DNA of 60,439 bases from Campylobacterota bacterium (GTDB taxonomy: Bacteria; Campylobacterota; Campylobacteria; Campylobacterales; QNZT01): the NCBI GenBank assembly GCA_022600175.1, contig JAHZKW010000159.1, forward strand, positions 1-60,439, given 5' to 3'. A model generated the notes under the pieces. That model was not told the DNA's origin, searched no databases, and saw only the letters and a program-made list of their open reading frames with translations. This document shows, piece by piece, positions 46,085 to 60,439 of this stretch; position 1 is the stretch's first letter, and the number at the start of each line of letters is the position of its first letter. Made by a program: the position numbers and the translations under genes.

Positions 46085-46093
46085 ATGTTTCCT

Positions 46094-47449: not shown

Positions 47450-47451
47450 CT

Positions 47452-48882: not shown

Positions 48883-48942
48883 CTCTTCTCCTATTTAATA
48901 TTGATATTAGATTTCAAAATTATATTAACCAAACCTTATTCG

Positions 48943-48977
48943 AGACTTAAAATGATAATTGTTATCATTTTAAGTCT
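48943..48977. promoter_or_regulatory. palindromic operator candidate (Fur-box-like) upstream of the imelysin operon
   Basis: 16-bp arms AGACTTAAAATGATAA and TTATCATTTTAAGTCT with a 3-nt centre. It contains TGATAAT-t-GTTATCA (7-1-7 Fur-box-like). TATAAT on the minus strand lies at 48924-48919. Confidence 0.55.
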
Positions 48978-48998
48978 TATGGCTGATAGGGTGTAATA

Positions 48999-50147
48999 TT
49001 AAAAGACGTAAGCCGTACCTAGCTCTATACGGTTGTCATCTTCTCCTTTATTATCTCGGATCATATAATCCACTTTTAAAATGACATTTTTAGTGGGTTG
49101 GTAGTTAAGTCCGATGACTGTGTTTGTGACATCGTCATCAGCTGGAACTTCTGTTCCTTCTTGATTATATTTTTCATCGAAACGGTTATATGTTTCATAC
49201 CGTATGAAAGGGGTGAAGTGCTCATTGATATCATATGAGGCATTAAGATAGTAACCTACACCTTTACCCGATGCATTCTTTTCTAATTTTTGTGCTACTT
49301 TTGCTGCATCATCAACTTGACTCATCGCATAAAGACCTCTTATTGCAAAACCTTGGATTTTATAACCAGCATGTACCTCTGCAATAGTGGTACTTACACC
49401 ATCAAGAGTATTATCCCCTTGACTTGCATCACCCGTAAAAACTGAAGCACCTAGCATCAGACCTGGCACACCTTGATAATCAACCCGTGCCACAATGCCA
49501 AAATCATCTGCTTTTGATTTTTGTCCACTTTGACGCATAGCCCGTACTTCGCTACCTTGTCCCGCATTAAGTCCTGCAACAATACCTATTTGATAAGCGA
49601 TGTCTGAGATACTTCCATGTAAGATTGCACCATTTTCATGCCATGTAGAAGGGATGATATACTTTTCAACTTCTGGACGATTCACAGCGTTAAAAGCAGT
49701 AGCTTCATGATAGAGGTTGATATAGCCTACTGGAACGATGACATGACCTAGTTTTACACTTGCCATTTCATTGAGTGTGAAGTCTAAGTAGGCTTGTTCA
49801 ACAATGCCATATCCACCAGTTTTTTCTCGTCCACCATGTTCCCACTCTAGTTCAGAAACAAATTTGATATTATCTGTAAATTGGTATCCAACATAGAGAA
49901 TAGCACGATAGATATCTAGTTTATCTGTTGCGTCGTCATCATCTAGGTATTTGATATAATCCATCTTCCCATAACCACCGATTGAGACACGATCCATTAC
50001 TGAAGATGCACTCTCCTTTTCTTGCATTGTTGCAATTTCGTTGATCAATTGATCATATTTTGTATTGAGCTCTTCTAGATTAGCTGCATTTATTTGTGTC
50101 ACTGCACAAAGACTCATTACTGTCATAAGACTATGTAATTTTTTCAT
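48999..50147 (-). CDS. outer-membrane porin with N-terminal coiled coil
   Basis: It shares RPEVEKYIIPSTWHENGAILHG with 42760-44100 (RPLVETYIIPSTWHTNGALLYG). C-terminal Phe (AYVF). Confidence 0.65.
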   Translation of the reverse strand: MKKLHSLMTVMSLCAVTQINAANLEELNTKYDQLINEIATMQEKESASSVMDRVSIGGYGKMDYIKYLDDDDATDKLDIYRAILYVGYQFTDNIKFVSELEWEHGGREKTGGYGIVEQAYLDFTLNEMASVKLGHVIVPVGYINLYHEATAFNAVNRPEVEKYIIPSTWHENGAILHGSISDIAYQIGIVAGLNAGQGSEVRAMRQSGQKSKADDFGIVARVDYQGVPGLMLGASVFTGDASQGDNTLDGVSTTIAEVHAGYKIQGFAIRGLYAMSQVDDAAKVAQKLEKNASGKGVGYYLNASYDINEHFTPFIRYETYNRFDEKYNQEGTEVPADDDVTNTVIGLNYQPTKNVILKVDYMIRDNKGEDDNRIELGTAYVF

Positions 50148-50224
50148 TTAATACTCCCCTTGTTCCCTTTTTTTTTGATGTTTCCATCTCTTAAAAATAG
50201 CTTAGGAAGATATTCTTAAAAGAT

Positions 50225-50262
50225 GATATTGTAGTTTAAGGGGGGGTATAAACTACAATATC
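50225..50262 (-). terminator. hairpin downstream of fldA
   Basis: GATATTGTAGTTTA (50225-50238), a 10-nt loop with a G7 run, TAAACTACAATATC (50249-50262). A T-rich stretch follows on the minus strand. Confidence 0.45.
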
Positions 50263-50340
50263 AAGGGCAATCTAATTCTGTAACATTTACTTAAAACGTG
50301 TTCAAGTGTTGATATATTGAAGTTTTTCTCTCTCCACCTC

Positions 50341-50844
50341 CTAATTTAAATATGATTTAATTGAATCAATCCACTGATCGATTCTCTTTTCTGTTAATTC
50401 ATCTTGATTATCTTCATCTAATGCAAGACCTACAAAGGCGTTATCAACAATGGCTGTTGATTCATCAAAATCATAACCTTCAGTTGACCATCCGTTACCA
50501 ACTACATTGGCACCTTTATCTACAGCATATTTGTAAAGTGTTCCCATCGCATCTAAATAGTTATCAGGGTATCCATCTTGATCTCCAAGACCAAAAAATG
50601 CTACTGTTTTACCAGCAAAATCCACCTCTTTAAAGTCATCTTCAAAATCTTCCCAATCATCTTGTAAGTCGCCTTCTCCCCATGTGGAAGTTCCAATGAT
50701 AAGTTCAGTATAGGTTTGAAAATCTTCTGCTTTGGCATTTGCGATATCATGCATCTCAACTTCTACATCTAGTTTTGATTTGATTATTTCTGCGACACGC
50801 TCAGTTGCACCGCCATTACTGCCATAAAAAATGCCTATTGCCAT
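50341..50844 (-). CDS. fldA: long-chain flavodoxin
   Basis: MAIGIFYGSNGGATE FMN-phosphate loop. 167 aa, acidic. Confidence 0.92.
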   Translation of the reverse strand: MAIGIFYGSNGGATERVAEIIKSKLDVEVEMHDIANAKAEDFQTYTELIIGTSTWGEGDLQDDWEDFEDDFKEVDFAGKTVAFFGLGDQDGYPDNYLDAMGTLYKYAVDKGANVVGNGWSTEGYDFDESTAIVDNAFVGLALDEDNQDELTEKRIDQWIDSIKSYLN

Positions 50845-51626
50845 TTTTTTGTTCTCCTTTTTTGATTTTTAATACAGAATGAAAATGAATAGGGAATCAT
50901 TTTCACTCTATATTCGTCCTCTGAAAGCTTGATATCGTTTTGAAATTTAAGATCCACATGTTTTGCAAAACTATTGTTTTTAGGAAAGATGAGAAAAACT
51001 TGACGAATTTTGTCAGAACGTAGGTGATCCATCGCCATATCAATGTTGTGATTGACGGTTTGATCTTGACGCATTGTTTTTTTCTCTATATTCTTATAAG
51101 AGGGGATGACTACTGTAGGAGAAGCTAGTGGATCAGGATCATAGATGATGATTTCATTGATGCCTAACTCTACTTTACATTTTTTATTGACTTTCTTGAT
51201 ACGTTCATAGACTAGATTTAAAAACATATCATCTAAATCCATCATCAACTCATAAGTTCCATTTTTATAGATCATTTGAATAAGCTTGGCAACATTTGAT
51301 GTTGGAGATTGTAATACTAATGTTGATTTTTTCTCAAGATATGCATGGATAATTTTAGTCCCTGCTAAATCTAAGGTAAATGAATCCTTAGGACGGTTTT
51401 GGTGCGCTTGTTTTAAGATATGGTCAATCTTTGTGGTAAAAACAGCTTTGAGATCTTGATATCCAATATATTCAGACTTTTTAAATCGTAGTGTCTTATC
51501 TACATAAAAATTAAAGAGATTAAAGAAAAGTAGTCTATTTTGTTTTGTACTACGCATCTGTTCACTTTGTGGTAAATACTCTATTACACCACCATTATTA
51601 TCTTGTACAAATCCTACATATTGCAT
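50835..51626 (-). CDS. hypothetical protein co-transcribed with fldA
   Basis: 263-aa ORF whose stop overlaps the fldA start by 10 nt. No family recognised. Confidence 0.5.
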   Translation of the reverse strand: MQYVGFVQDNNGGVIEYLPQSEQMRSTKQNRLLFFNLFNFYVDKTLRFKKSEYIGYQDLKAVFTTKIDHILKQAHQNRPKDSFTLDLAGTKIIHAYLEKKSTLVLQSPTSNVAKLIQMIYKNGTYELMMDLDDMFLNLVYERIKKVNKKCKVELGINEIIIYDPDPLASPTVVIPSYKNIEKKTMRQDQTVNHNIDMAMDHLRSDKIRQVFLIFPKNNSFAKHVDLKFQNDIKLSEDEYRVKMIPYSFSFCIKNQKRRTKKWQ

Positions 51627-51772
51627 CTTAAATCCTTTTTGAATTTGAAAATAGTTATCGAAATGATATTGTTTTATTCTTAAAATAAATTGAAATCGAA
51701 AATGGTTATCAAATTAAGTTGTAAGTAAGTTTGCCTCTTTTATGATTGCATCATCAATTGAGGAGTTGTGTC

Positions 51773-51910
51773 ATGCATGAACGTAAAGAGTTAATATATG
51801 AGTTAGGTATATTTGTACTACTTATTGTGGTAATAGGACTTTTTACCTATAGTATCGTGCATCTTCTCTCTGATAAAAACTTGATAGCGTTTATCACTTA
51901 TATATCGTAA
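51773..51910 (+). CDS. unannotated 45-aa single-helix membrane peptide
   Basis: GAGGAG at 51760-51765, 7-nt spacer, ATG at 51773 (MHERKELIYELGIFVLLIVVIGLFTYSIVHLL...), TAA at 51908-51910. Confidence 0.3.
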   Translation: MHERKELIYELGIFVLLIVVIGLFTYSIVHLLSDKNLIAFITYIS

Positions 51911-51934
51911 AAGATATTTTTTATTGAGAATAAA

Positions 51935-52042
51935 ATGAGCTTACTTCAACTAATACTCTTTTTTTATGTGGCATTAAATACTAGTGTGTTGATACTCTTT
52001 TTATTCTCTATAAAGTATATAAATAAAGAGGATTATGAATGA
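51935..52042 (+). CDS. unannotated 35-aa hydrophobic peptide
   Basis: ATG at 51935 (MSLLQLILFFYVALNTSVLILFLFSIKYINKEDYE). Its TGA forms an ATGA overlap with the ATG at 52039. The RBS is weak. Confidence 0.2.
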   Translation: MSLLQLILFFYVALNTSVLILFLFSIKYINKEDYE

Positions 52043-52263
52043 AGAACTTAATTTTTATACTAATTTTTTCAGCTTTTACATTTCAGGCATGTAGTGTAAA
52101 AAAGACAGGAGTAGAGTGTGAAAAGAGTAGTCATATCAATAGTGACAGCAACGGTAGTAGTGAGTGCATCAACAAATGTCAAACTAGATACAATCATGGT
52201 AACCACAGCTACAAAGACAAGCAAAAATATCGAAGGTGTGAGCGCGAGTGTCATCGTCGTTGA
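52039..52263 (+). CDS. possible small Cys/His-rich lipoprotein overlapping the receptor gene out of frame
   Basis: RBS AAAGAGGA lies 6-7 nt upstream. Lipobox TFQAC is present. The last 146 nt overlap the TonB-dependent receptor in another frame, so it may be spurious beyond the signal peptide. Confidence 0.25.
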   Translation: MKNLIFILIFSAFTFQACSVKKTGVECEKSSHINSDSNGSSECINKCQTRYNHGNHSYKDKQKYRRCERECHRR

Positions 52264-54220
52264 TGCGCAGAAAATAGAGTCAATGGGTGCTTCAACTTTA
52301 GGTGATGTAATTAAAAAAACACCAGGCTTAACAGTGCAGTATGGAACTTTCCCTAGTGCATCGAGTAAGTCAAAATCTTCTATATCGCTAAGAGGTATGG
52401 GTGCAAATGGGACACTCTTTTTGATTAATGGTAAAAGACTTTCTGGGGAGGTAAAAAACCCTTATGATTTAGATAGGATCCCTGCATCAGCGATTGAAAG
52501 AGTTGAAGTAGTCAAAGGCCCTATGAGCTCGCTCTATGGTGCAGATGCTGTAGGTGGTGTGATTAATATTATTATGAAAAAACCAACTAAAGTTTTTGAG
52601 GGGTCGGTGGGTGCAAAATATGGTTCTAATATAGATGGAGATGGGTCAAACTCAGGTTTGAACTTCAATGTGAGAGGTAAAAAAGAGAAACTTTCTTATA
52701 GTTTTAATGCAGATGCACTATACTCAGAGCCTTATACACAAAGCGAGAATGCAAATGTTTTAGTAAAAACTGCTACTGGAAAAGTGAAGCCTTCTGTCCA
52801 CCCTTACCCAGGTGTTCAGCAATTGGCAGATGAATATGTCACAGATGTAACTTATAGAGAAAAGGCAACAGTTTATAATTTTGGTGGTCGTTTGTCTTAT
52901 GATTTTAACGATGTATTTACTATGGGAGTAGATGCAAATTATATGGATGAAGAGAGAGAGGGTGCATATAATGGGTATTATCACCCTTCAAATCACATTA
53001 GTAATGGAAACAAAATACCTATTTTTAATATACCTGTAAACTCTATAGATGAAAATAGTCGACGTAATATTGGCGTAGATACACAATGGACAGTATCTAA
53101 TGATCTATTATTGAAGCTTAATATTTATAATAGTTTTTATAAAAAGAGAAATACAACAACAGCAGTGAATTATCAGGCAATGGGGTATGAAAATGAAGTC
53201 GCATCTAGTGCAAATGGTATGAGTGCAGATGTAGATATTACTTCCTATGAACTTAGTGGAAATCATGTTTTAAGTGATACACATTTATTAACTTTTGGAG
53301 GAGAGCATAGAGATGAAACAAGAGAAGCAACCGTCTTTGACAATACACCAGGTTTTAGCGAAAAATCTGTTGATTACCAAGCATTATATTTACAAGATGA
53401 ATGGGAATTAAGTGATACTTTAAATGTAGTATTTGGCGGAAGATACGATGCCATTAGCAATGCAGATAATAAAGCAACATTTAGAGTGGGAGCCGTTAAG
53501 AATCTTTCAAAAGCACTCAATTTTAGATTTAATTTTGCACAAGGTTATCGTACGCCAGATATTAGGGAGATGTATATTTTTAAGCAGACTCCTGCAGGTA
53601 TGCAAAGAGGAGCCGAGACAATTGGGTATAACTTACAGCCTGAGTTTACTAACGCATATGAGGTAGGCTTGAGTGGTACAAGAGAAGGATTTGATTATGC
53701 CATAGCCCTTTTTTACAATCAAATTGATGATCAGATAGAGCAAGTGCAAAGAGGGGATACCGATACTGGTCAATATTGGACATTTGAAAATGTGAGTGAA
53801 GCAGAGACTTTTGGTGTGGAGACAACCTTAGGATATAGTTTTGATAATGGTGCTTATCTCTCATTTGCTTGGAATGAACTTCAAACAGAAAACAAAGATA
53901 CAGGTAAAGATTTGGAATTTAACCCTGAACGTACACTCTCAATGGGTCTTGATACAACATTAATGGCCGATTGGAGTGTTGGGATATTAGCAACATATAT
54001 TGGAGAACAATACTATAGTAAAGCAACTACAAATGGAAATATTGATGCTAGTACAGAGGCTTATACACTTGTAGACTTAACCAGTAGTTATAAGTTTGGT
54101 GACAATAAAAAATATGAGATCTATGGTGGTGTGAATAACATTTTTGATGAGAGTGTAGAAAATATTCTTGGTTCAAATGTTGGGACTTATGTTTTTGCGG
54201 GTATAAGAGCAGATTTTTAG
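52118..54220 (+). CDS. TonB-dependent outer-membrane receptor
   Basis: GTG start with AGGAG upstream, signal peptide, plug region (LDTIMVTATK, ERVEVVKGPMSSLYGADAVGGVINI) and C-terminal aromatic residue (RADF). Confidence 0.9.
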   Translation: MKRVVISIVTATVVVSASTNVKLDTIMVTTATKTSKNIEGVSASVIVVDAQKIESMGASTLGDVIKKTPGLTVQYGTFPSASSKSKSSISLRGMGANGTLFLINGKRLSGEVKNPYDLDRIPASAIERVEVVKGPMSSLYGADAVGGVINIIMKKPTKVFEGSVGAKYGSNIDGDGSNSGLNFNVRGKKEKLSYSFNADALYSEPYTQSENANVLVKTATGKVKPSVHPYPGVQQLADEYVTDVTYREKATVYNFGGRLSYDFNDVFTMGVDANYMDEEREGAYNGYYHPSNHISNGNKIPIFNIPVNSIDENSRRNIGVDTQWTVSNDLLLKLNIYNSFYKKRNTTTAVNYQAMGYENEVASSANGMSADVDITSYELSGNHVLSDTHLLTFGGEHRDETREATVFDNTPGFSEKSVDYQALYLQDEWELSDTLNVVFGGRYDAISNADNKATFRVGAVKNLSKALNFRFNFAQGYRTPDIREMYIFKQTPAGMQRGAETIGYNLQPEFTNAYEVGLSGTREGFDYAIALFYNQIDDQIEQVQRGDTDTGQYWTFENVSEAETFGVETTLGYSFDNGAYLSFAWNELQTENKDTGKDLEFNPERTLSMGLDTTLMADWSVGILATYIGEQYYSKATTNGNIDASTEAYTLVDLTSSYKFGDNKKYEIYGGVNNIFDESVENILGSNVGTYVFAGIRADF

Positions 54221-54245
54221 AAAGTAAAAGAGAAAAGGAAAAAGT

Positions 54246-55196
54246 ATGAAAAAAGTGATAGTTATGAGTGTAGCATTAGGATTGGTGACATGGTTAGTTG
54301 CAAAAACACCAACACATACAGAGGATAATCTAAAACAAAAGATTGCCAAAATGGCAGGTGAAAAAGGGAGATTTGCTACACATGAAATGTTTCCAAAAGA
54401 TTATTTTTTAATTTCAAAAAATTTACCTTTTGTGATGGGGTTAGTTCTTAACCATCCACAAAGTAGTACATTAGAATTGAGTGATGATCAGAAAAAAACA
54501 CTTAAAGCGATTAAAGAGAAAACTGTACCTATAGTACTCAAAGAAGCTAAAGCAATTAAAACATTGGAGTTAGCACTTGCAGATAAGATAGTCAAAGGTG
54601 CAAAAGCGGCTGACTTGAGTGCAGAGGTAGAGAAGATAGGTGCATTAAAAATAGCATTGACAAAGAAGCATCTTGTATGCATTGAAAAGTCACTGGCAAT
54701 CTTAACACCTAAACAACTAGATAAGATGATGCAGTATGCAGGGAAGAAAGGTAAAAATAAACATAAGCAAGAGTCAGCACACCCTATTGAAGAGTTGGTT
54801 GATTTACCACACCCTATTAAAATGATTATGCCAAACAGAGAGAAACTCAAAATTACTGTTGATCAGGAAAAAGCACTAGAAGAGAAGATGATGGCAGTTT
54901 TCCCAGAAAAAATCCATGGCAATATGGATAAAGCTGAAGTGATTGAGACAAAGATCAAAAAAGCCGTTTTAAGTGAGTCAAAAACGAAAGAGGATCTTAA
55001 AGTTGATATCCAAACGTTAGCTGATATCAAAGTTAGTATTACCAATGATCATATTGATGCACTTAATACACTAGAGACAATTTTAACAAAAGCACAGTTT
55101 TCTCAGTTGTTAATAATGATGGGGCATAAAAAAGAGCATAGCCATGATCATGGGTCTAAAGATCATCACCATGACCATAAAGGTCATAAACACTAA
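54246..55196 (+). CDS. periplasmic tandem LTXXQ (Spy/CpxP/ZraP-like) protein with His-rich tail
   Basis: Signal peptide. Two repeats of about 120 aa each carry two LxxxQ motifs (LSDDQKKTL and LTPKQLDKM; ITVDQEKAL and LTKAQFSQL). The tail is HKKEHSHDHGSKDHHHDHKGHKH. Confidence 0.7.
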   Translation: MKKVIVMSVALGLVTWLVAKTPTHTEDNLKQKIAKMAGEKGRFATHEMFPKDYFLISKNLPFVMGLVLNHPQSSTLELSDDQKKTLKAIKEKTVPIVLKEAKAIKTLELALADKIVKGAKAADLSAEVEKIGALKIALTKKHLVCIEKSLAILTPKQLDKMMQYAGKKGKNKHKQESAHPIEELVDLPHPIKMIMPNREKLKITVDQEKALEEKMMAVFPEKIHGNMDKAEVIETKIKKAVLSESKTKEDLKVDIQTLADIKVSITNDHIDALNTLETILTKAQFSQLLIMMGHKKEHSHDHGSKDHHHDHKGHKH

Positions 55197-55221
55197 TTAG
55201 TGAATAAGTAGGAGTAAAGCA

Positions 55222-55356
55222 GTGGCATATGATGTGAGACGAATCATTGATTCCAAAGAGCTTTTTAAAAAAGAGAAAACGGTGATGATTTCTCATGAGG
55301 GGACACAGTATATATTGCGTATTACCAAAGAGAATAAATTGATATTGACAAAATAA
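55222..55356 (+). CDS. hemP: unannotated HemP-type hemin-uptake small protein
   Basis: GTG at 55222 with AGGAG upstream. The 44-aa product ends in the HemP signature ISHEGTQYILRITKENKLILTK. The tracked minus-strand ORF 55156-55386 is its shadow. Confidence 0.7.
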   Translation: MAYDVRRIIDSKELFKKEKTVMISHEGTQYILRITKENKLILTK

Positions 55357-55420
55357 GAAGAGTTTAGCCAGCCACTGCTTGTGCATCAGCCAGCCAATAA
55401 CTTTATTGAAAAGATAAAGG

Positions 55421-55954
55421 ATGGTTTGTATGATTGCGATGTTAGAGAGTTTTATGTATGAGGTGTCAAATATATTTTTGACACCTGTTTTGATTTTAAT
55501 TGTATTACTATTTGTATATGCATTTTTTCAAATCGGGGTATTTTCCGCTGAAGTATTTACCCGCAAAAAGTATGCCGCTTTATATAAAAGGTATGTTAAA
55601 GAGTCCACTGATAAGGGTGTTAAAGGGTACCCTGTTTATAACTATTATGTACAAAATGGCATTTTAGATACTGATAGTCTAGAGCTTTTTGCTTTTAAAA
55701 AACTTCAAAATGCCTCCATTGTTACACGTGTTGCACCTATGCTTGGACTTGTGGCTACAATGATCCCTATGGGACCAGCACTTAAAGCACTCTCTAATGG
55801 TAATGTACAAGGGATTAGTGAAAATCTTATTATCGCTTTTGCAGCCGTTATATTTGCCCTGATTACCGCTTCTATCACTTATTGGATTACGACTAAACGT
55901 AAAGCCTGGTACGCTGAAGAGATTACTACTATTGTCAGAGAGCAGAGTGTATGA
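55421..55954 (+). CDS. MotA/TolQ/ExbB-family proton channel protein
   Basis: 177 aa with three TM helices and the VAPMLGLVATMIPMGPAL motif. Confidence 0.8.
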   Translation: MVCMIAMLESFMYEVSNIFLTPVLILIVLLFVYAFFQIGVFSAEVFTRKKYAALYKRYVKESTDKGVKGYPVYNYYVQNGILDTDSLELFAFKKLQNASIVTRVAPMLGLVATMIPMGPALKALSNGNVQGISENLIIAFAAVIFALITASITYWITTKRKAWYAEEITTIVREQSV

Positions 55955-56268
55955 AATTGCTTAATGAAGATGAATCTTTGAATCCTATTCTTTCTGCTGT
56001 GAATTTGATTGATGTTTTTCTAGTGATTATTGCTGCTCTTTTAATCTCTATAGCCAAAAATCCGCTTAACCCTTTTAGTGCTGATGATGTGACGGTGATA
56101 AAAAATCAGGGTAAGAAAAATATGGAGATTATTACTAAAAAAGGTAAAAAGATCACCAAATATAAGTCAAGTGGTAAGATTGGAGAGGGTGAAGGTGAAA
56201 AGGCAGGTGTTGCCTATAAGATGAAGGATGGCTCGATTATCTATGTACCTGAAGGAGTACAGAAGTGA
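55951..56268 (+). CDS. DUF2149-like single-pass protein in the ExbD position
   Basis: 105 aa with one N-terminal TM helix and a Gly/Lys-rich beta-like tail. ATGA overlap upstream and GTGA overlap downstream. Family recalled from memory. Confidence 0.6.
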   Translation: MKLLNEDESLNPILSAVNLIDVFLVIIAALLISIAKNPLNPFSADDVTVIKNQGKKNMEIITKKGKKITKYKSSGKIGEGEGEKAGVAYKMKDGSIIYVPEGVQK

Positions 56269-59200
56269 GATTTTTTATTGTTATCGCATTTTTTGTCTCT
56301 TTACTCTATGCTTCACCCAAAAAAGTCTTGATTATTTCAACACCTATGGGTGCAACATCACAATCAAGCAAGATGCAATATCTTAAAAATGCTGCACAAC
56401 AGATTGATGATCTTAGTGTTGATTATACCTTCTCTAATGCCCTTGGATGGAGTGATATCAATGGTTCTGTACATTTTACCACCACAAGTGTTAATGATGA
56501 GATTATGCAAAAAAAGTTATTTTTTGCATATGATTTGATTTTGTTTGACTCTCTTGCTGGAGCGATGAGTTTAAAGTCGACATTGAATAGTTTTGCAGAT
56601 ACGATAGAAGAGAGTGAGCAAAAGATAATTGTGCCCTTACCTATGGTAGAGGAAGAGGCATATCGTAAAAATATCAGTGAGAAAGATCATAAAGCACTCT
56701 ATGCTTATTGGAGCAATGGTGGTGCTAAAAATCTTGATAACATGATTGACTATATTCATAATCGAATTTTTCTAGAAAATAGTAAGAATATTGAACCTGC
56801 AGTTGAAATTCCTAAGGAGGGGATATACCATCCTCAATATGAGAATATTGTCTTTAAGACAACAAAAGCATATTTTGAATATTTTGGGATTAAAAAAGGT
56901 GAAAAGCCGATTATTGCTTTAGCTTTTCATCGTGGATCATTCTCTTCAAATACAATGGCGCCTATAGATGATGCGATCAAACATTTAGAGGCTAAGGGGG
57001 TAGCGGTATTACCTTATTTTACCAAAGTGGGTGGAGATGACTTTGTTGGAATGCAGTTTTTGCAAGAGAATAATGAAACTATAGTTGATGTGGTGATTAA
57101 TTTTCAGATTATGATTATTGACCATGAGAGCCTTAAGCCTATTTATCAACAGTTAAATGTTCCAATACTTCATGCACTCTATTATCGACATGGTGATGAG
57201 AAGAAGTGGAAAGAGGATACTTCTGGTGTACATTTTTCGATGATTCCTATGACTTATATTATACCTGAAACGTTAGGATATACAGAAGGCTTAGTCGTTG
57301 CTACACAAAATCAAAAAACAAAAGAGATTGAAACAATCCCTTATCAACTTAATGCTTTAGTGCAAAAAGCTTTCAATATGGCAAAGTTAAAACATCTTGA
57401 AAATAGACAAAAAAAAGTTGCTTTGATGTTTTATAACTACCCTCCAGGTATTAACAATTTGGGTGCCTCATTTCTCAATATTCCTGAAAGTTTAACAACG
57501 TTTTTTAAGCATCTTTCAGAGGAGGGGTATAGCACAGAGTCAAAAGACCAAGTATGGTTTGAGGCGATGGCAACAAAGATCTTAAAAGCTTATTATGAGA
57601 GTGGTAAAGAGGAAGAGATGTTAACAGAAGGTGTGGCTGCACTTTTTGCTTATGAAGATTATATAGACTTTTTTGAAACGTTACCACAAGAGATTCAAGA
57701 CGCAATGAATAGAAAGTGGGGTAAACCAGATCAAAGTAAGATGGTTATTGAGAAAAAAGGAGATAAGTTTTTTCTCATTCCTCGTGTGAGGTTGGGAAAT
57801 GTGATTTTGATGCCTCAGCCAAGAAGAGCAGATCGTAAAGATAATAATATAAGTCAAGATGAGAGTGATTCCAATCTTTGGCACAATACTAATATTGCAG
57901 TTAATCACGCCTATCTTGCTGCTTATCTTTATGTGCGAAAACAGTTTGAAGCAGATGCACTTATTCATTTTGGTACACATGGAACACAAGAGTGGATGCC
58001 AGGTAAAGAGAGAGGATTAAGTATCTATGATAATCCTTTTTTAGTGTTGGGTGATTTACCGATATTTTACCCTTATATCACCAATAATGTTGCAGAGTCT
58101 ATTCAAGCAAAACGAAGAGGACGTGCAACACTGATCTCCCATCAAACGCCACCATTTGGTCTTACTGGTACTTATAATGAGTTAGGTGAGATCATGGAAA
58201 ATATTACACAGTATAAGAGTGTAGATGAGGGGATGCTGAAAGCTAATCTTAAAAAGATGATTACCCAGACTGCTATTGCGATCAATGTACATAGAGATTT
58301 AGAGTATACCGAAGCGATGATTGCAGATGATTTTGAGATGTTTATTAGTAAGTTAGAAGATTTTATCTTAGCGACTTCTGCTACAGCACAACCTTTAGGG
58401 ATGCATACCTATGGAACATATCCTAAAGATGAACATCTTATTACTACTGTAATGCAAATGGTTGGAAAAGAGTTTATGCAAAAAGCTGATGGTGAAAGGT
58501 ATTTTTCTAAAGATTATACGGAGTTCAATCAATCCAAAGCATATAGCGTGTTAAGGTCTGCACTTTTTGAAAATAATAGCAGTGTTGTGATTGATCCAGA
58601 GCTTGCTGTTTATGTTGATAAGGCAAAAGCTTATGCTAACTCTTTTAAAAATCAAAAAGAGATTAAAAATTTAGTACGTGCGTTAAATGGTGAATATATT
58701 GAAAGTGGTATTGGTGGAGATCCGATACGAAATCCAAGTTCAGTTCCTACTGGAAATAACATGTATGGATTTGATCCCTCAAAAGTGCCAACGCCTGCGG
58801 CATATAAGACAGGCTCAAAATTGATGAAAGATTTTATCGAAAATTTTTATCAAGAAAACGGTAAATATCCTACAAAACTTACCTTTAATCTCTGGTCTTT
58901 AGAGACAATGCGTCACTATGGTGTGTTAGAGAGTGAGATACTTTATGCGATGGGGGTGAAGCCTATTTGGAATGAGCAGGGGTTACAAGATAGTTATATT
59001 CAGAGTATGGCGTTGCCGATGCTTAAAAACTATCTTCCTGATTTTTTAGCAAAGTGGATTGCGTCTATGGTCACACTGCCTCGTATTGAGATGGTATTAT
59101 CATGGCTTCCTGAGAAGATGGCTGAAAAACCTCAAAAAATGATCAAACATGCAAAAGCGGTCAATAAAGGGGATATTATTGATGTTGAGATTATCCCTTA

Positions 59201-60311
59201 TAGTGAACTCAAACGTCCTTGTGCAGATGTCGTTGTCTCTGCAACGGGTTTGTATCGTGATACCTTTCCTCAAACGATGCAGTTGATTGCTAAAGCAGTT
59301 GATAAAGTAGCATCATTAAAAGAAGATAAAAATCATCTCTATATTAATGCGAACAAAATAAAGCAAAATCTCTTAGATAAAAATATAAGTATCGAAGAGG
59401 CAACAAGACTCTCTACTATACGGGTTTTTTCTAATAAAAGCGGAAAATATGGTAGTGGAGTAAGTAAACTTACCAATACTGAAAAATTTACTGCTGAGAC
59501 TGATAGTGCAATCGCTGAGGATTATCTTGAAGAGAGAGGGTATTACTTTGGTGCTGATGAAAAAAGTTGGAATCAAAAATTACCTCATGTAGATTTGTAT
59601 GCTCAAAACCTTAGTGGTACTGATAGTGTTTTATTTTCAAGGACTTCTAATCTCTATGCGCTTTTAACAAGTGATGATCCTTATGGGTATTTTGGTGCAC
59701 TCTCTTTAGCGATAAGAGATATAGACGGTAAAGCACCGAAAACCTATATCTCTAATCTTCGTGATCCCAATGGTGCAAAAATGCAAAGTACTGCTGAGTT
59801 TATGGCACAGGAACTGAGAAGCCGTTATTTTCATCCCAAATGGATAGAAGAGATGAAATCAGAAGGGTATAGTGGTACCCAAGGTGTACTTGATGTAGTG
59901 AATAATTTCTGGGGTTGGCAAGTGGTTGACCCTAATGTAGTGAGAGATGATCAATGGAAAGAGTTTTTTGAAGTTTATATTCAAGATAAACACAATTTAG
60001 GGTTAAAAGAGTGGTTTGAAAAAGCCAATGCAGATAATTTGGCACAGATGATGGAGCGTATGCTTGAAGCTGTACGTTTGGGATATTGGCAAGCAGATGA
60101 AAAAACAGTCAAAACTTTAAAAGAGCGTTATAAAAAACTTGAAATAACACATAATGTCAAAAGTTATAATGAAAAGTTTAAAGCATTGTTAGAGAGTGAT
60201 CAAGTATCTGGATTTGGGTTAGCAAAACCGATTTCTGCGAAACTAGAGATGGCAAATAGTGCACCCAAACAAAATAAAAAAATAAGCAAGGAGTCTGGTC
60301 GTTGGTTATGA
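56265..60311 (+). CDS. CobN/Mg-chelatase large-subunit family protein with N-terminal signal/anchor (HmuS-like)
   Basis: 1348 aa. CobN hallmark HFGTHGTQEWMPGKE is present. The N-terminus MRFFIVIAFFVSLLYASP looks like a signal peptide. No ChlI/ChlD-type AAA+ partner lies in the window. Confidence 0.9.
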   Translation: MRFFIVIAFFVSLLYASPKKVLIISTPMGATSQSSKMQYLKNAAQQIDDLSVDYTFSNALGWSDINGSVHFTTTSVNDEIMQKKLFFAYDLILFDSLAGAMSLKSTLNSFADTIEESEQKIIVPLPMVEEEAYRKNISEKDHKALYAYWSNGGAKNLDNMIDYIHNRIFLENSKNIEPAVEIPKEGIYHPQYENIVFKTTKAYFEYFGIKKGEKPIIALAFHRGSFSSNTMAPIDDAIKHLEAKGVAVLPYFTKVGGDDFVGMQFLQENNETIVDVVINFQIMIIDHESLKPIYQQLNVPILHALYYRHGDEKKWKEDTSGVHFSMIPMTYIIPETLGYTEGLVVATQNQKTKEIETIPYQLNALVQKAFNMAKLKHLENRQKKVALMFYNYPPGINNLGASFLNIPESLTTFFKHLSEEGYSTESKDQVWFEAMATKILKAYYESGKEEEMLTEGVAALFAYEDYIDFFETLPQEIQDAMNRKWGKPDQSKMVIEKKGDKFFLIPRVRLGNVILMPQPRRADRKDNNISQDESDSNLWHNTNIAVNHAYLAAYLYVRKQFEADALIHFGTHGTQEWMPGKERGLSIYDNPFLVLGDLPIFYPYITNNVAESIQAKRRGRATLISHQTPPFGLTGTYNELGEIMENITQYKSVDEGMLKANLKKMITQTAIAINVHRDLEYTEAMIADDFEMFISKLEDFILATSATAQPLGMHTYGTYPKDEHLITTVMQMVGKEFMQKADGERYFSKDYTEFNQSKAYSVLRSALFENNSSVVIDPELAVYVDKAKAYANSFKNQKEIKNLVRALNGEYIESGIGGDPIRNPSSVPTGNNMYGFDPSKVPTPAAYKTGSKLMKDFIENFYQENGKYPTKLTFNLWSLETMRHYGVLESEILYAMGVKPIWNEQGLQDSYIQSMALPMLKNYLPDFLAKWIASMVTLPRIEMVLSWLPEKMAEKPQKMIKHAKAVNKGDIIDVEIIPYSELKRPCADVVVSATGLYRDTFPQTMQLIAKAVDKVASLKEDKNHLYINANKIKQNLLDKNISIEEATRLSTIRVFSNKSGKYGSGVSKLTNTEKFTAETDSAIAEDYLEERGYYFGADEKSWNQKLPHVDLYAQNLSGTDSVLFSRTSNLYALLTSDDPYGYFGALSLAIRDIDGKAPKTYISNLRDPNGAKMQSTAEFMAQELRSRYFHPKWIEEMKSEGYSGTQGVLDVVNNFWGWQVVDPNVVRDDQWKEFFEVYIQDKHNLGLKEWFEKANADNLAQMMERMLEAVRLGYWQADEKTVKTLKERYKKLEITHNVKSYNEKFKALLESDQVSGFGLAKPISAKLEMANSAPKQNKKISKESGRWL

Positions 60312-60439
60312 TGACCAAGAGGTAGCCGATAACGTTGACTTTTCACTTAAAGCAGGTGAGTTATGTGCCGTGGTCGGTATCAATGGTATTGGTAAATCAA
60401 CCTTATTGCGAACCCTCGCGAAGCTGCAGCCCAAATTAA
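60286..60439 (+). CDS. 5' part of an FepC/HmuV-type ABC transporter ATP-binding protein running off the window; start unresolved
   Basis: The frame reads ...SLVVGYDDQEVADNVDFSLKAGELCAVVGINGIGKSTLLRTLAKLQPKL (Walker A). An in-frame TAA at 60283-60285 leaves no ATG/GTG/TTG start; only a CTG at 60295 is available. Confidence 0.55.

What the first reader, a model, noticed from the sequence alone, without database searches (positions are those of the whole stretch)
52118..60311. TonB-dependent receptor, HemP, ExbB-like, DUF2149 and secreted CobN-like chelatase: an hmu-type tetrapyrrole-metal system outside Bacteroidota
The 1348-aa CobN-family protein carries an apparent signal peptide and lacks ChlI/ChlD-type ATPase partners. 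It is chained by ATGA and GTGA overlaps to a MotA/ExbB-type proton channel and a DUF2149-like single-pass protein. An outer-membrane receptor, a His-tailed periplasmic protein and HemP precede it, and an FepC/HmuV-like ATPase follows. As I recall, this mirrors the Porphyromonas/Bacteroides hmuR-hmuS-hmuT-hmuU arrangement. There the CobN-like HmuS has been proposed to remove iron from haem anaerobically. A proton-motive-force-coupled, extracytoplasmic (de)chelatase is a plausible and little-explored mechanism here. The substrate (haem, corrinoid, or Ni/Co) is open.
Basis: partly seen in the sequence, partly recalled or inferred. Interest (0 to 1): 0.75.

Follow-up and report, generated by a model that had tools for sequence, protein, structure and literature searches.

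The report
Hmu-like haem-iron module in Campylobacterota
This stretch encodes an apparently iron-regulated outer-membrane receptor, a small proton-channel pair and a membrane-anchored periplasmic CobN-like enzyme that together look like a proteobacterial cousin of the Bacteroides Hmu system, which strips iron from haem; the ABC ATPase at the end is an assembly artefact.

Summary
The genes are real and at the stated coordinates: a TonB-dependent receptor, a helical periplasmic protein with a His tail, HemP, a MotA/ExbB-like protein, DUF2149 and a CobN-family protein. The last three are chained by ATGA and GTGA overlaps. One correction is needed. The window is a whole contig, and its last 143 bases (the "ATPase") are foreign. 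In an identical metagenome scaffold the CobN-like protein runs to 1394 aa and ends in a transmembrane helix, as Bacteroides HmuS does.

The enzyme sits in a well-supported clade of Campylobacterota and Pseudomonadota with relatives in at least 588 species. This clade is sister to the proven haem dechelatase HmuS and lies outside biosynthetic CobN and ChlH. Across 84 related loci the receptor, MotA-like, DUF2149 and CobN-like genes form the conserved core. HmuY homologues occur in 14 loci, HemP in 11, and Fur-box-like sites are enriched upstream.

The protein nevertheless fails the HmuS signature. Asp replaces His-1209, Ile aligns with His-254, and there is no Met-rich insertion.

Best reading: a Fur-controlled Hmu-like module that takes iron from haem or another metalloporphyrin. 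Substrate and proton-motive-force coupling are unproven. It is a new variant of a known kind. Pseudomonas PA1922-1925 has the same gene content and order but is Zur-regulated.

The parts
51647..51713 (.). Two direct copies of GAAAAT-R-GTTATC-R-AA (51647-51662 and 51698-51713) in the divergent promoter region between the flavodoxin operon and the receptor operon. They are a candidate Fur operator.
   Evidence: These are the only two exact matches in the window. Each fits the 6-1-6 Fur core GATAAT-N-ATTATC with 2 mismatches. A near-identical site, GATAATAGTTATCAAA, lies upstream of the fur gene in Sulfurimonas locus L005. Promoter-like hexamers overlap the first copy. No binding has been shown.
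52118..54220 (+). TonB-dependent outer-membrane receptor with a signal peptide and a TonB box (LDTIMVTTA).
   Evidence: Pfam Plug and TonB_dep_Rec_b-barrel both match. The best solved relatives are CirA at 127 bits, FepA and BtuB, with haem receptors at about 65 bits. The TIGR01785 haem-receptor model scores 183 bits against a cut-off of 317.
54246..55196 (+). Periplasmic all-helical protein made of two LTXXQ/CnrX-like halves, with a C-terminal His-rich tail.
   Evidence: No Pfam hit passes the cut-off in this copy. Several of its 36 homologues carry precomputed PF07813 or PF13801 hits. The AlphaFold2 model has pLDDT 73 and is helical. Foldseek returns CnrXs repeatedly at probability 0.96-0.99, but no E-value is below 0.25. 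Homologues end in a short KKHKH instead of the long tail.
55222..55356 (+). HemP/HmuP-family small protein (44 aa).
   Evidence: PF10636 scores 63.4 bits with E 1.7e-17. Homologues lie in 10 further loci of the same module, in Campylobacterota, Beta- and Gammaproteobacteria.
55421..55954 (+). MotA/ExbB/TolQ-type membrane protein, the counterpart of HmuU.
   Evidence: PF01618 scores 26.3 bits against a cut-off of 22.9. The stretch PMLGLxATMxPMGPAL is conserved in 72 homologues. The stop codon overlaps the next start as ATGA.
55951..56268 (+). DUF2149 single-pass membrane protein, the counterpart of HmuV and an ExbD/TolR/MotB analogue.
   Evidence: PF09919 scores 104 bits. An Asp within the transmembrane helix (VNxxDxFLV) is conserved in at least 90% of 76 homologues. 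The stop codon overlaps the CobN-like start as GTGA.
56265..60296 (+). CobN/ChlH-superfamily, HmuS-like protein. It has an N-terminal signal or anchor helix and is cut short here by the contig-end junction. The authentic protein is 1394 aa with a C-terminal transmembrane helix (L001 10315-14499).
   Evidence: PF02514 scores 964 bits. The best solved relative is HmuS, 9d26, at 401 bits, ahead of ChlH at 324 and CobN at 296. The tree places it in a clade with 100% bootstrap that is sister to HmuS at 72%. The scaffold comparison shows the truncation.
60297..60439 (+). This is NOT part of the system. It is a foreign ABC-ATPase fragment joined to the contig end.
   Evidence: The sequence diverges from the identical scaffold at 60296/60297. 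It has 45% GC. There is no start codon in frame.

Best explanation
This is a Fur-controlled, Hmu-like module for taking iron from haem or a closely related metalloporphyrin.

Proposed steps:
1. Under iron limitation the operon is derepressed. The divergent flavodoxin operon and the nearby imelysin/di-haem-oxidoreductase operon are probably derepressed with it.
2. The TonB-dependent receptor brings the metalloporphyrin into the periplasm.
3. The large CobN-family protein faces the periplasm. It is held on the inner membrane by its terminal helices.
4. It removes the metal at the conserved central cleft, as its sister enzyme HmuS does for haem. His-572, in the invariant HxGTHG motif, faces Asp-1138 there; HmuS has a second His (His-1209) at that position.
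5. The MotA/ExbB-like protein and DUF2149 form a proton-conducting stator-type unit, with an Asp in the DUF2149 transmembrane helix conserved in at least 90% of homologues. The unit energises the process. It either acts on the CobN-like protein through its membrane helices or serves the receptor as a private ExbB/ExbD.
6. The released cation is handled in the periplasm by the CnrX/LTXXQ-like protein with its His tail. It is then imported by a ferrous transporter encoded elsewhere.
7. HemP is the small accessory or regulatory protein typical of proteobacterial haem-uptake loci.

Shown: gene content, domains, overlaps, phylogenetic placement, conserved residues and neighbourhood statistics.
Inferred: substrate, direction of the reaction, Fur control, topology and the roles of the channel pair and the helical protein.
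For: - The closest solved relative is the haem dechelatase HmuS (401 bits). For the C-terminal catalytic half the scores are 196 bits for HmuS against 108 for ChlH and 96-103 for CobN.
- In a neighbour-joining tree on 974 columns, the window clade has 100% bootstrap, HmuS is its sister at 72%, and biosynthetic CobN and ChlH lie outside.
- HmuS was shown to convert haem to protoporphyrin IX and Fe(II). It has transmembrane helices at both ends (PMC12583661). It is reported as periplasm-exposed (PMC13227078).
- The authentic window protein has hydrophobic helices at both ends. So do 79 of 82 (C-terminal) and 75 of 82 (N-terminal) full-length relatives.
- HmuU is a MotA/ExbB protein and HmuV is a DUF2149 protein in the Bacteroidota operon. 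Both are present here with overlapping reading frames.
- Among 48 related loci with full flanks, DUF2149 is present in 47, the MotA-like gene in 46 and a receptor in 43.
- HmuY-family genes (PF14064) are present in 14 of 84 loci. One is a Helicobacteraceae MAG with the order HemP-receptor-HmuY-CobN-like-MotA-like-DUF2149. HemP is present in 11 loci.
- Fur-box matches with 4 or fewer mismatches lie upstream of the module in 14 of 74 loci, against 0 of 255 intragenic controls. No Zur-type palindrome was found.
- The window has two Fur-core repeats in the promoter region and one upstream of the imelysin operon.
- Iron-stress genes lie next to the module here and in relatives: flavodoxin, ferritin, Fur, ChaN and FeoB.
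Against: - The HmuS-defining features are missing. At His-1209/Glu-1212 the family has Asp and Gly (S/T/N-D-D-P), which resembles biosynthetic CobN. Ile aligns with His-254. There is no Met-rich insertion.
- The receptor is closer to CirA, FepA and BtuB than to haem receptors, and it fails the haem-receptor subfamily cut-off.
- The window has neither HmuY nor HmuT.
- The only studied operon with the same gene content in Proteobacteria, PA1922-1925, is induced by zinc limitation, not iron limitation.
- The His tail, the CnrX-like fold and the DUF4198 genes in relatives would fit Zn, Co or Ni as well as Fe.
- The Fur sites are consensus matches only. Window-wide, such matches are not enriched: 10 found against 7.4 expected.
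- No experiment exists for any member of this clade.
Confidence: 0.55

Rival explanations
1. The module acquires a metal other than iron (Zn, Co or Ni). The receptor imports a metal chelate, either a metallophore or a non-iron metalloporphyrin or corrinoid. The periplasmic CobN-like protein strips or exchanges the metal. His-rich periplasmic proteins then capture it.
For: - PA1922-1925, which has the same four gene types, is among the most strongly Zur-induced operons. It has been linked to cobalt accumulation.
- The active-site position that is His in HmuS and ChlH is Asp here, as in cobalt-inserting CobN.
- The adjacent protein resembles the Ni/Co sensor CnrX and has a His tail.
- DUF4198, shown to be a periplasmic zinc-capture protein (PMC12663993), follows the CobN-like gene in Arcobacter, Sulfurovum and other relatives.
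- The receptor is CirA-like.
Against: - No Zur-type palindrome was found upstream in 74 loci, whereas Fur-box matches are enriched.
- HemP lies inside this operon.
- HmuY and HemP co-occur specifically with the Asp-Asp type of enzyme. There were 15 HmuY and 10 HemP co-occurrences among 78 such proteins, and none among the 7 Asp-His proteins.
- The neighbouring genes are iron-stress genes.
- Whether PA1923 is an orthologue of this clade was not tested.
Confidence: 0.22
2. The enzyme runs in the chelatase direction. It inserts a metal in the periplasm into an imported metal-free tetrapyrrole, salvaging a porphyrin or corrinoid. The MotA-like/DUF2149 proton motor replaces the AAA+ ChlI/ChlD or CobS/CobT motor that class I chelatases need.
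For: - The superfamily is otherwise made of ATP-driven chelatases whose large subunit needs a motor. No AAA+ partner is present here or as a recurrent gene in 84 loci.
- The cleft has a CobN-like Asp.
- The SEED-style name 'CobN-like chelatase BtuS for metalloporphyrine salvage' is attached to one homologue.
Against: - The nearest characterised relative works as a dechelatase and needs no motor in vitro (PMC12583661).
- Iron-starvation control argues for gaining a metal, not spending one.
- There is no riboswitch and no cobalamin gene nearby.
Confidence: 0.08
3. It is an ordinary biosynthetic cobaltochelatase subunit CobN, as databases annotate it.
For: Sources name the homologues 'cobaltochelatase subunit CobN'. 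The NCBIfam CobN model NF004644 scores 1171.6 bits.
Against: - That score is below the model's cut-off of 1248.
- The protein has membrane helices at both ends.
- There are no CobS/CobT genes, no cob genes and no riboswitch.
- Genuine CobN proteins from cob clusters lie outside its clade in the tree.
Confidence: 0.02

Closest known systems
Bacteroidota Hmu system (hmuYRSTUV), with HmuS as haem dechelatase (B. thetaiotaomicron, PDB 9d26; P. gingivalis, B. fragilis BtuS2)
   Same: - Both have a receptor, a CobN-superfamily protein with transmembrane helices at both ends, a MotA/ExbB protein (HmuU) and a DUF2149 protein (HmuV).
- Both appear to be under iron/Fur control.
- HmuS is the best solved match and the sister group in the tree.
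- The HxGTHG motif is conserved.
- Some relatives of the window module also carry HmuY.
   Different: - Identity to HmuS is only about 30%.
- Asp replaces His-1209 and Gly replaces Glu-1212.
- The site-1 haem ligand His-254 is not conserved.
- There is no Met-rich insertion.
- The gene order is receptor-X-HemP-U-V-S instead of Y-R-S-T-U-V.
- The window has no HmuT or HmuY. It adds HemP and a CnrX/LTXXQ-like periplasmic protein.
- The host is a low-GC member of Campylobacterota.
Pseudomonas aeruginosa PA1922-PA1925 (Zur-regulated operon of unknown function)
   Same: It has the same four gene types: a TonB-dependent receptor, a CobN-like protein, an ExbB/ExbD-type proton-channel protein and a DUF2149 protein. 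The order receptor-CobN-MotA-DUF2149 also occurs in 14 of 48 related loci, mainly Betaproteobacteria, and in an uncultured Pseudomonadaceae genome.
   Different: That operon is controlled by zinc through Zur, and it has been discussed in terms of cobalt or zinc. The window shows Fur-type sites, HemP and iron-stress neighbours. Orthology to PA1923 could not be tested because its sequence was not obtainable with these tools.
Class I ATP-dependent chelatases (CobNST, ChlHID/BchHID)
   Same: They share the six-domain CobN/ChlH fold family (PF02514), the invariant HxGTHG histidine and, with CobN, the Asp opposite it.
   Different: Those enzymes are cytoplasmic and soluble, and are driven by an AAA+/VWA motor encoded nearby in biosynthetic clusters. 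Here the enzyme faces the periplasm, is membrane-anchored, has no AAA+ partner and is paired with a proton-channel unit.
ExbB-ExbD-TonB, TolQ-TolR-TolA and MotA-MotB stator units
   Same: All combine a MotA/ExbB-family membrane protein with a single-pass partner that carries a conserved Asp in its membrane helix. The two genes are translationally coupled.
   Different: - The partner is DUF2149, not an ExbD/TolR-family domain.
- The MotA-like protein is short, at 177 aa.
- No TonB- or TolA-like third component lies in the operon.
- Canonical ExbB or ExbD genes lie beside the module in 11 and 14 of the 84 related loci respectively.

Membership tests
HmuS haem dechelatase family (as defined in PMC12583661) | CobN/ChlH-superfamily body with the HFG(T/A)HG motif (catalytic His-538) | tested here: met
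   IHFGTHGTQEW is present. The histidines are invariant in 17 aligned family members, and all 85 relatives carry an HxGTHG motif.
HmuS haem dechelatase family (as defined in PMC12583661) | LSLDHxxEFMGG motif with His-1209 and Glu-1212 | tested here: not met
   The window has LTSDDPYGYFGA, so His becomes Asp and Glu becomes Gly. Of 85 relatives, 78 have D-D and 7 have D-H.
HmuS haem dechelatase family (as defined in PMC12583661) | Site-1 haem ligands Met-79 and His-254 | tested here: not met
   His-254 aligns with Ile in two independent alignments. The head domain that holds Met-79 could not be aligned at all, and the N-terminal 400 aa score higher with ChlH than with HmuS.
HmuS haem dechelatase family (as defined in PMC12583661) | Methionine-rich insertion of about 120 aa in domain IV | tested here: not met
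   HmuS residues 697-931 correspond to window residues 732-796, about 64 aa that are not Met-rich. Some gammaproteobacterial relatives carry a His/Asp/Glu-rich insertion at this site instead.
HmuS haem dechelatase family (as defined in PMC12583661) | Transmembrane helices at the N and C termini, with the bulk of the protein periplasmic | tested here: met
   The N terminus is MRFFIVIAFFVSLLYAS. The C terminus is WFFYIFLLFSIFSGILY followed by QIRKEKL, seen in the full-length copy. A C-terminal hydrophobic helix is present in 79 of 82 full-length relatives and an N-terminal one in 75 of 82. This rests on hydropathy and the positive-inside rule only.
HmuS haem dechelatase family (as defined in PMC12583661) | Encoded together with hmuR, hmuU (MotA/ExbB) and hmuV (DUF2149) | tested here: met
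   All three are in the operon. In 48 related loci with full flanks, DUF2149 is present in 47, the MotA-like gene in 46 and a receptor in 43.
HmuS haem dechelatase family (as defined in PMC12583661) | Complete six-gene operon including hmuY and hmuT | tested here: not met
   No HmuY or HmuT domain was found in the window. HmuY-family genes are present in 14 related loci.
HmuS haem dechelatase family (as defined in PMC12583661) | Conversion of haem to protoporphyrin IX and Fe(II) | not testable with these tools
   This needs biochemistry or genetics.
Biosynthetic cobaltochelatase CobN | Reaches the curated equivalog score | tested here: not met
   The best model, NF004644, scores 1171.6 bits against a cut-off of 1248. 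TIGR02257 scores 503 against 822.
Biosynthetic cobaltochelatase CobN | Soluble cytoplasmic protein with CobS/CobT (AAA+/VWA) partners and cob genes or a B12 riboswitch nearby | tested here: not met
   The protein has terminal membrane helices. No such genes were found among the 32 window ORFs scanned or as recurrent neighbours in 84 loci. Rfam gives no hit. Control CobN loci do sit among cob genes.
Biosynthetic cobaltochelatase CobN | Groups with CobN in a phylogeny | tested here: not met
   CobN proteins from Paracoccus, Cupriavidus, Ralstonia and Haloferax fall outside the clade formed by the window family and HmuS.
PA1922-1925-type Zur-regulated module | Receptor, CobN-like protein, MotA/ExbB-type protein and DUF2149 | tested here: met
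   The PA1922-1925 annotation is taken from PMC9431628.
PA1922-1925-type Zur-regulated module | Zur box and zinc control | tested here: not met
   No Zur-type palindrome with 2 or fewer mismatches lies upstream in the window or in 74 loci, whereas Fur-type sites do. The consensus used comes from Gammaproteobacteria, so this is a weak test for Campylobacterota.
PA1922-1925-type Zur-regulated module | Orthology of the CobN-like protein to PA1923 | not tested
   The PA1923 sequence was not retrievable. Pseudomonadaceae and Thiopseudomonas relatives at 36-38% identity are in the family.
ExbB/ExbD-, TolQ/TolR-, MotA/MotB-type proton-driven stator | MotA_ExbB domain plus a single-pass partner with a conserved Asp in its membrane helix | tested here: met
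   PF01618 passes its cut-off. The Asp in VNxxDxFLV is conserved in at least 90% of 76 DUF2149 sequences. It is invariant as D21 in a separate alignment of 22 close relatives.
ExbB/ExbD-, TolQ/TolR-, MotA/MotB-type proton-driven stator | Partner belongs to the ExbD/TolR family, and a TonB- or TolA-like transducer is present | tested here: not met
   The partner is PF09919, not PF02472. No TonB-like gene was found among the window ORFs scanned. The structure model of DUF2149 was too poor to compare folds (pLDDT 54).
HemP/HmuP | PF10636 above the gathering score | tested here: met
   It scores 63.4 bits against a cut-off of 25.
TonB-dependent haem/haemoglobin receptors | Reaches the TIGR01785/TIGR01786 subfamily score | tested here: not met
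   The scores are 183 against 317 and 168 against 324. Solved haem receptors rank below CirA, FepA and BtuB.

The most novel reading that the evidence does not exclude
The MotA/ExbB-like protein and DUF2149 do not serve the outer-membrane receptor. Instead they form a proton-driven stator that acts directly on the periplasmic CobN-like enzyme through its terminal membrane helices. In this reading the proton-motive force takes over the role that the AAA+ ChlI/ChlD or CobS/CobT motor plays for cytoplasmic class I chelatases. That would be a new kind of client for the MotA/ExbB stator family, an enzyme that handles metals in tetrapyrroles. The clade-specific Asp opposite the catalytic His could also mean a substrate or metal range different from that of HmuS.
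Probability: 0.2. Interest if true: 0.85.

Novelty: new variant of a known kind. Interest (0 to 1): 0.58.

Why it matters
Removal of iron from haem without oxygen, leaving the porphyrin ring intact, was demonstrated biochemically only in 2025, for Bacteroides HmuS. Published surveys describe the hmu operon as confined to Bacteroidetes (PMC10100974). This locus belongs to a large, uncharacterised sister family. Relatives occur in at least 588 species of Campylobacterota and of Alpha-, Beta- and Gammaproteobacteria, and nearly all are annotated as 'cobaltochelatase CobN'.

If these proteins also dechelate haem, the mechanism is widespread in marine, sediment and sulfur-oxidising bacteria rather than a speciality of gut anaerobes. 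The family also gives a natural His-to-Asp variant of the proposed active site to test. It offers a candidate function for the orphan Zur-regulated operon PA1922-1925 of Pseudomonas aeruginosa, if that operon proves orthologous. Finally, it sharpens an open question: what do the conserved MotA/ExbB-like and DUF2149 partners actually energise?

Tried and rejected
- **Exact look-up of the 1348-aa ORF** found nothing. That was the first hint that the C terminus was unusual. The DUF2149 look-up then gave the identical scaffold.
- **The protein search with DUF2149** listed only close relatives (74% identity or more) among its best 120 of 1166 hits, so it gave no Bacteroides or Pseudomonas sequences. 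HmuS and ChlH blocks therefore had to be transcribed from PDB alignments. PA1923 could not be obtained at all.
What lies beyond the second CobN-like gene is unknown.
- **The AlphaFold2 model of DUF2149** had pLDDT 54, so no fold search was run on it.
- **The fold search for the 316-aa protein** gave no significant E-value. The CnrX resemblance is only a consistent hint, alongside LTXXQ and Metal_resist Pfam hits in homologues.
- **The E. coli 19-bp Fur consensus** has no match with 3 or fewer mismatches in the window. The 13-bp core is not enriched window-wide. Only the positions of the sites and the comparison with relatives support a Fur operator.
- **The first bootstrap script** timed out and was replaced by a faster one.
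- **Cobalamin riboswitch control** was rejected.
- **Biosynthetic CobN** was rejected.
- **The idea that the His tail is a family feature** was rejected.
- **The idea that the channel pair is linked to the enzyme much more tightly than to the receptor** is only weakly supported, at 47 and 46 against 43 of 48 loci.

Full report
**What is in the sequence**

The region carries six co-directional genes.
- 52118-54220 is a TonB-dependent receptor with Plug and barrel domains. A TonB box, LDTIMVTTA, follows its signal peptide.
- 54246-55196 is a 316-aa protein with a signal peptide and the tail HSHDHGSKDHHHDHKGHKH.
- 55222-55356 is a 44-aa HemP (PF10636, 63 bits).
- 55421-55954 is a short MotA/ExbB-family protein (PF01618, 26.3 bits).
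- 55951-56268 is DUF2149 (104 bits).
- From 56265 runs a CobN/Mg-chelatase-family protein (964 bits).

The last three genes are chained by ATGA and GTGA overlaps. Rfam finds no riboswitch anywhere in the window.

Upstream and divergent lie an unknown 263-aa gene and a flavodoxin gene. Beyond them are a porin and an imelysin / di-haem oxidoreductase / imelysin set. The sampled genes in the rest of the contig are a phosphate-starvation cluster and housekeeping genes. No cob, TonB, ExbD or AAA+ chelatase gene was found among the 32 ORFs scanned.

**Correction at the 3' end**

The window is a whole contig of 60439 nt. Positions 45951-60296 are 100% identical to an independent 51-kb metagenome scaffold, L001. 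After 60296 the two sequences diverge.

The final 143 nt have 45% GC against about 36% for the neighbouring sequence. They encode the Walker A region of an ABC ATPase. That frame has a stop 12 codons upstream of the conserved N-terminal strand and no start codon in between.

In L001 the CobN-like frame continues to 1394 aa. It ends ...EKIEWFFYIFLLFSIFSGILYQIRKEKL, a hydrophobic helix followed by basic residues. Of 82 full-length relatives, 79 have such a C-terminal helix and 75 have an N-terminal one. So the scaffold version is the biological one, and the 'ATPase that follows' is an assembly join.

What truly follows is an ankyrin-repeat protein, a 737-aa lipoprotein-like protein, a second receptor and a second CobN-like paralogue. 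The same layout occurs in a Sulfurovum MAG. The closest genome, a Campylobacterales MAG at 75% identity, has the lipoprotein and second receptor but no detectable ankyrin gene.

**Which CobN-like protein is it?**

Against all solved structures, the best match is the haem dechelatase HmuS of Bacteroides thetaiotaomicron (9d26) at 401 bits. ChlH scores 324 and CobN 296 or less. For the C-terminal catalytic half the gap is larger: 196 bits against 108 and 96-103. The N-terminal 400 residues are slightly more ChlH-like.

I built a neighbour-joining tree on 974 well-aligned columns. It used:
- HmuS and ChlH blocks taken from the PDB alignments;
- genuine CobN proteins from cob clusters of Paracoccus, Ralstonia and Haloferax, plus a presumed canonical CobN from Cupriavidus whose gene context was not annotated;
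- relatives from Campylobacterota and from Beta- and Gammaproteobacteria.

The window protein falls in a clade with 100% bootstrap support. HmuS is its sister at 72%. All biosynthetic chelatases lie outside. No NCBIfam CobN or BchH equivalog reaches its cut-off.

**It is not a member of HmuS proper**

The paper that established HmuS (PMC12583661) lists the family-defining features:
- Met-79 and His-254, which ligate a haem at the head/neck interface;
- a methionine-rich insertion of about 120 aa in domain IV;
- the motifs HFG(T/A)HG (His-538) and LSLDHxxEFMGG (His-1209, Glu-1212) facing each other in the central cleft;
- membrane helices at both ends.

The window protein keeps HFGTHG and the terminal helices. 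At the second motif, however, it reads LTSDDPYGYFGA, so His-1209 is Asp and Glu-1212 is Gly. Ile aligns with His-254. The domain IV segment is 64 aa against 234 in HmuS and is not Met-rich.

Across 85 relatives the motif is (S/T/N)-D-D-P in 78 and T-D-H-P in 7. Biosynthetic CobN also has Asp at this position, whereas ChlH and HmuS have His. The clade is thus HmuS-like in overall sequence, topology and partners, but CobN-like at one proposed catalytic or axial residue.

**How widespread is the module, and what travels with it?**

They include:
- Campylobacterota: Sulfurimonas, Sulfurovum, Sulfurospirillum, Arcobacteraceae and Helicobacteraceae;
- Gammaproteobacteria: Colwellia, Pseudoalteromonas, Microbulbifer, Shewanella, Thalassotalea, Methylococcales and Pseudomonadaceae;
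- Betaproteobacteria: Cupriavidus, Rhodocyclaceae and Nitrosomonas;
- some Alphaproteobacteria.

I clustered all ORFs from 84 loci. Only four families recur broadly: the CobN-like protein in 80 loci, DUF2149 in 76, the MotA-like protein in 72 and receptors in 64. In the 48 loci with at least 6 kb on both sides, DUF2149 is present in 47, the MotA-like gene in 46 and a receptor in 43. The order is MotA-DUF2149-CobN in 32 loci and CobN-MotA-DUF2149 in 14.

The next recurrent neighbours are informative.
- An HmuY-family protein (PF14064, E 8e-14) occurs in 14 loci.
- Canonical ExbD and ExbB occur in 14 and 11 loci.
- HemP occurs in 11 loci.
- One Helicobacteraceae MAG has HemP-receptor-HmuY-CobN-like-MotA-like-DUF2149, which is an hmu operon in all but HmuT.
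- Every HmuY- or HemP-linked enzyme is of the Asp-Asp type. The His-to-Asp change therefore does not separate the clade from haem-associated genes.
- No AAA+/VWA chelatase partner and no ABC transporter recurs.

**Regulation**

The divergent promoter region holds two exact copies of GAAAAT-R-GTTATC-R-AA, at 51647 and 51698. These are the only exact copies in the window. Each fits the 6-1-6 Fur core with two mismatches. A one-mismatch core lies upstream of the imelysin operon at 48954. Nearly the same 16-mer lies upstream of the fur gene next to the module in a Sulfurimonas MAG.

In relatives, the 19-bp Fur consensus matches with 4 or fewer mismatches upstream of the module in 14 of 74 loci. 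The figure for 255 intragenic control segments is 0. No Zur-type palindrome was found.

Neighbours here and in relatives are iron-stress genes: flavodoxin, ferritin, Fur, ChaN and FeoB. These are consensus matches and context, not proof. The core motif is not enriched window-wide.

**The accessory proteins**

DUF2149 has an Asp inside its membrane helix (VNxxDxFLV) that is conserved in at least 90% of 76 homologues. The MotA-like protein keeps the PMLGLxATMxPMGPAL stretch typical of the ExbB/TolQ/MotA family. Together they look like a proton-conducting stator unit. Its structure could not be modelled usefully.

The 316-aa protein belongs to a small family of 36 homologues, whose only taxonomic labels are Campylobacterota MAGs. 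Several homologues carry LTXXQ or Metal_resist Pfam hits. Its model is two helical hairpin bundles. These repeatedly match the periplasmic Ni/Co sensor CnrX at high Foldseek probability, but without a significant E-value.

The long His tail is unique to this copy. His-rich elements nevertheless recur around the module:
- DUF4198 follows the enzyme in several relatives. DUF4198 was shown to be a periplasmic zinc-capture protein (PMC12663993).
- HmuY-linked gammaproteobacterial enzymes carry His/Asp/Glu-rich insertions of about 40-60 aa exactly where HmuS has its Met-rich insertion.

**Most likely mechanism**

I read this as an iron-regulated Hmu-like module. The receptor imports haem or a related metalloporphyrin. 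The membrane-anchored periplasmic enzyme removes the metal in the conserved cleft. The cation is buffered by His-rich periplasmic elements and taken up by a ferrous transporter encoded elsewhere.

The stator-like pair supplies proton-motive energy. Published models assign HmuU/V to the receptor as an ExbB/ExbD pair (PMC10100974). Alternatively, the pair acts on the enzyme itself. Points in favour of this alternative:
- the overlapping reading frames;
- the absence of any TonB partner;
- the presence of canonical ExbB/ExbD next to some modules;
- the missing AAA+ motor.

Points against:
- purified HmuS turns haem over without HmuU/V (PMC12583661);
- the receptor is almost as tightly linked to the module as the channel pair is.

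I put the overall haem-iron reading at about 0.55 and direct coupling to the enzyme at about 0.2.

**Rivals**

The main rival is acquisition of another metal. Pseudomonas aeruginosa PA1922-1925 has the same four gene types. It is one of the most strongly Zur-induced operons, has no known function and has been discussed in relation to cobalt (PMC4542158, PMC9431628, PMC8531726, PMC13083405).

The CobN-like Asp, the CnrX-like protein, DUF4198 and the CirA-like receptor fit that reading. HemP, HmuY, the Fur sites and the iron-stress context argue against it for this locus.

A periplasmic chelatase (salvage) direction and an ordinary biosynthetic CobN are much less likely. The second is effectively excluded.

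**Novelty and verdict**

HmuS chemistry is established, so this is not a new kind of system. The Bacteroidota literature calls the operon confined to that phylum, at an identity threshold of 30% or more. It leaves 'most remaining bacterial sequences' of the superfamily unassigned.

This locus is a member of a large, uncharacterised sister clade with a distinct active-site signature and distinct accessories. I rate it a new variant of a known kind and of moderate to good interest (0.58). It needs correction on the ATPase, on 'secreted', on the His tail and on HmuS membership.

Noticed in passing
window 60297-60439: The last 143 nt of the contig are a foreign ABC-ATPase fragment. It has 45% GC and no start codon, and it diverges from an otherwise identical scaffold. 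The join truncates the CobN-like gene and creates a false stop at 60311.
   Followed up: yes
L001 14496-20318 (downstream of the true end of the window's gene): A second, partial module follows: an ankyrin-repeat protein (167 aa), a 737-aa lipoprotein-like protein with no Pfam domain, a second TonB-dependent receptor and a second CobN-like paralogue (1312 aa). It has no MotA-like/DUF2149 pair of its own. Sulfurovum L007 also has the lipoprotein, second receptor and second paralogue. Campylobacterales L011 shows the lipoprotein and second receptor; no ankyrin homologue was detected in either.
   Followed up: partly
L045, L054, L064, L065, L069, L073, L037 (domain IV of the CobN-like proteins): Gammaproteobacterial relatives, most of them linked to HmuY, carry His/Asp/Glu-rich insertions of about 40-60 aa exactly where Bacteroides HmuS has its Met-rich insertion.
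   Followed up: partly
window 58974-59171 (residues 904-969 of the CobN-like protein): A 63-aa amphipathic insertion lies between domains. HmuS, ChlH, CobN and 68 of 85 relatives lack it. It is present in only 17 of 85 relatives, 16 from Campylobacterota plus one Rhodocyclaceae MAG (L020).
   Followed up: partly
L075, L081, L082, L084, L085, L086, L089: Seven relatives (Burkholderiales, Chromatiales, Nitrosomonas) have T-D-H-P-F-E, with His and Glu as in HmuS, instead of D-D-P. None of them is linked to HmuY or HemP.
   Followed up: partly
window 44984-50147 (- strand), site at 48954-48966: A porin is followed by imelysin, a di-haem oxidoreductase (DHOR) and a second imelysin. A near-perfect Fur core, GATAATTGTTATC, lies upstream of the first imelysin gene. 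This is probably a second iron-uptake system in the same regulon.
   Followed up: partly
window 50341-51626 (- strand): A flavodoxin gene and a 263-aa gene with no Pfam domain are transcribed divergently from the same Fur-like promoter region. Flavodoxin also lies next to the module in several relatives.
   Followed up: partly
window 51746-51910 and 52039-52263: Two small ORFs lie between the Fur-like boxes and the receptor. One is a 45-54-aa hydrophobic peptide. The other is a lipoprotein-like signal sequence (LIFSAFTFQAC) whose frame overlaps the receptor start.
   Followed up: no
window 55461-55486: A 10-bp-stem hairpin followed by a T-rich tail, resembling a terminator, lies about 40 nt inside the MotA-like reading frame. 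It could be chance or a regulatory element between HemP and the MotA-like gene.
   Followed up: no
window 1062-24343: A phosphate-starvation cluster is present. It includes PhoD, PhoX-like, a PHO4 transporter, PstS-like binding proteins, PstC/PstA-like permeases and sensor kinases. Two sizeable ORFs, 10843-12822 and 16140-17168, have no Pfam domain.
   Followed up: no
L004 7383-11456 (Cupriavidus sp. EM10 chromid): A 1357-aa CobN-like protein with an N-D-D-T motif branches just outside the clade formed by HmuS and the window family. It lies next to a presumed canonical cobN gene and has no MotA-like or DUF2149 neighbour. It may represent another unassigned branch of the superfamily.
   Followed up: no
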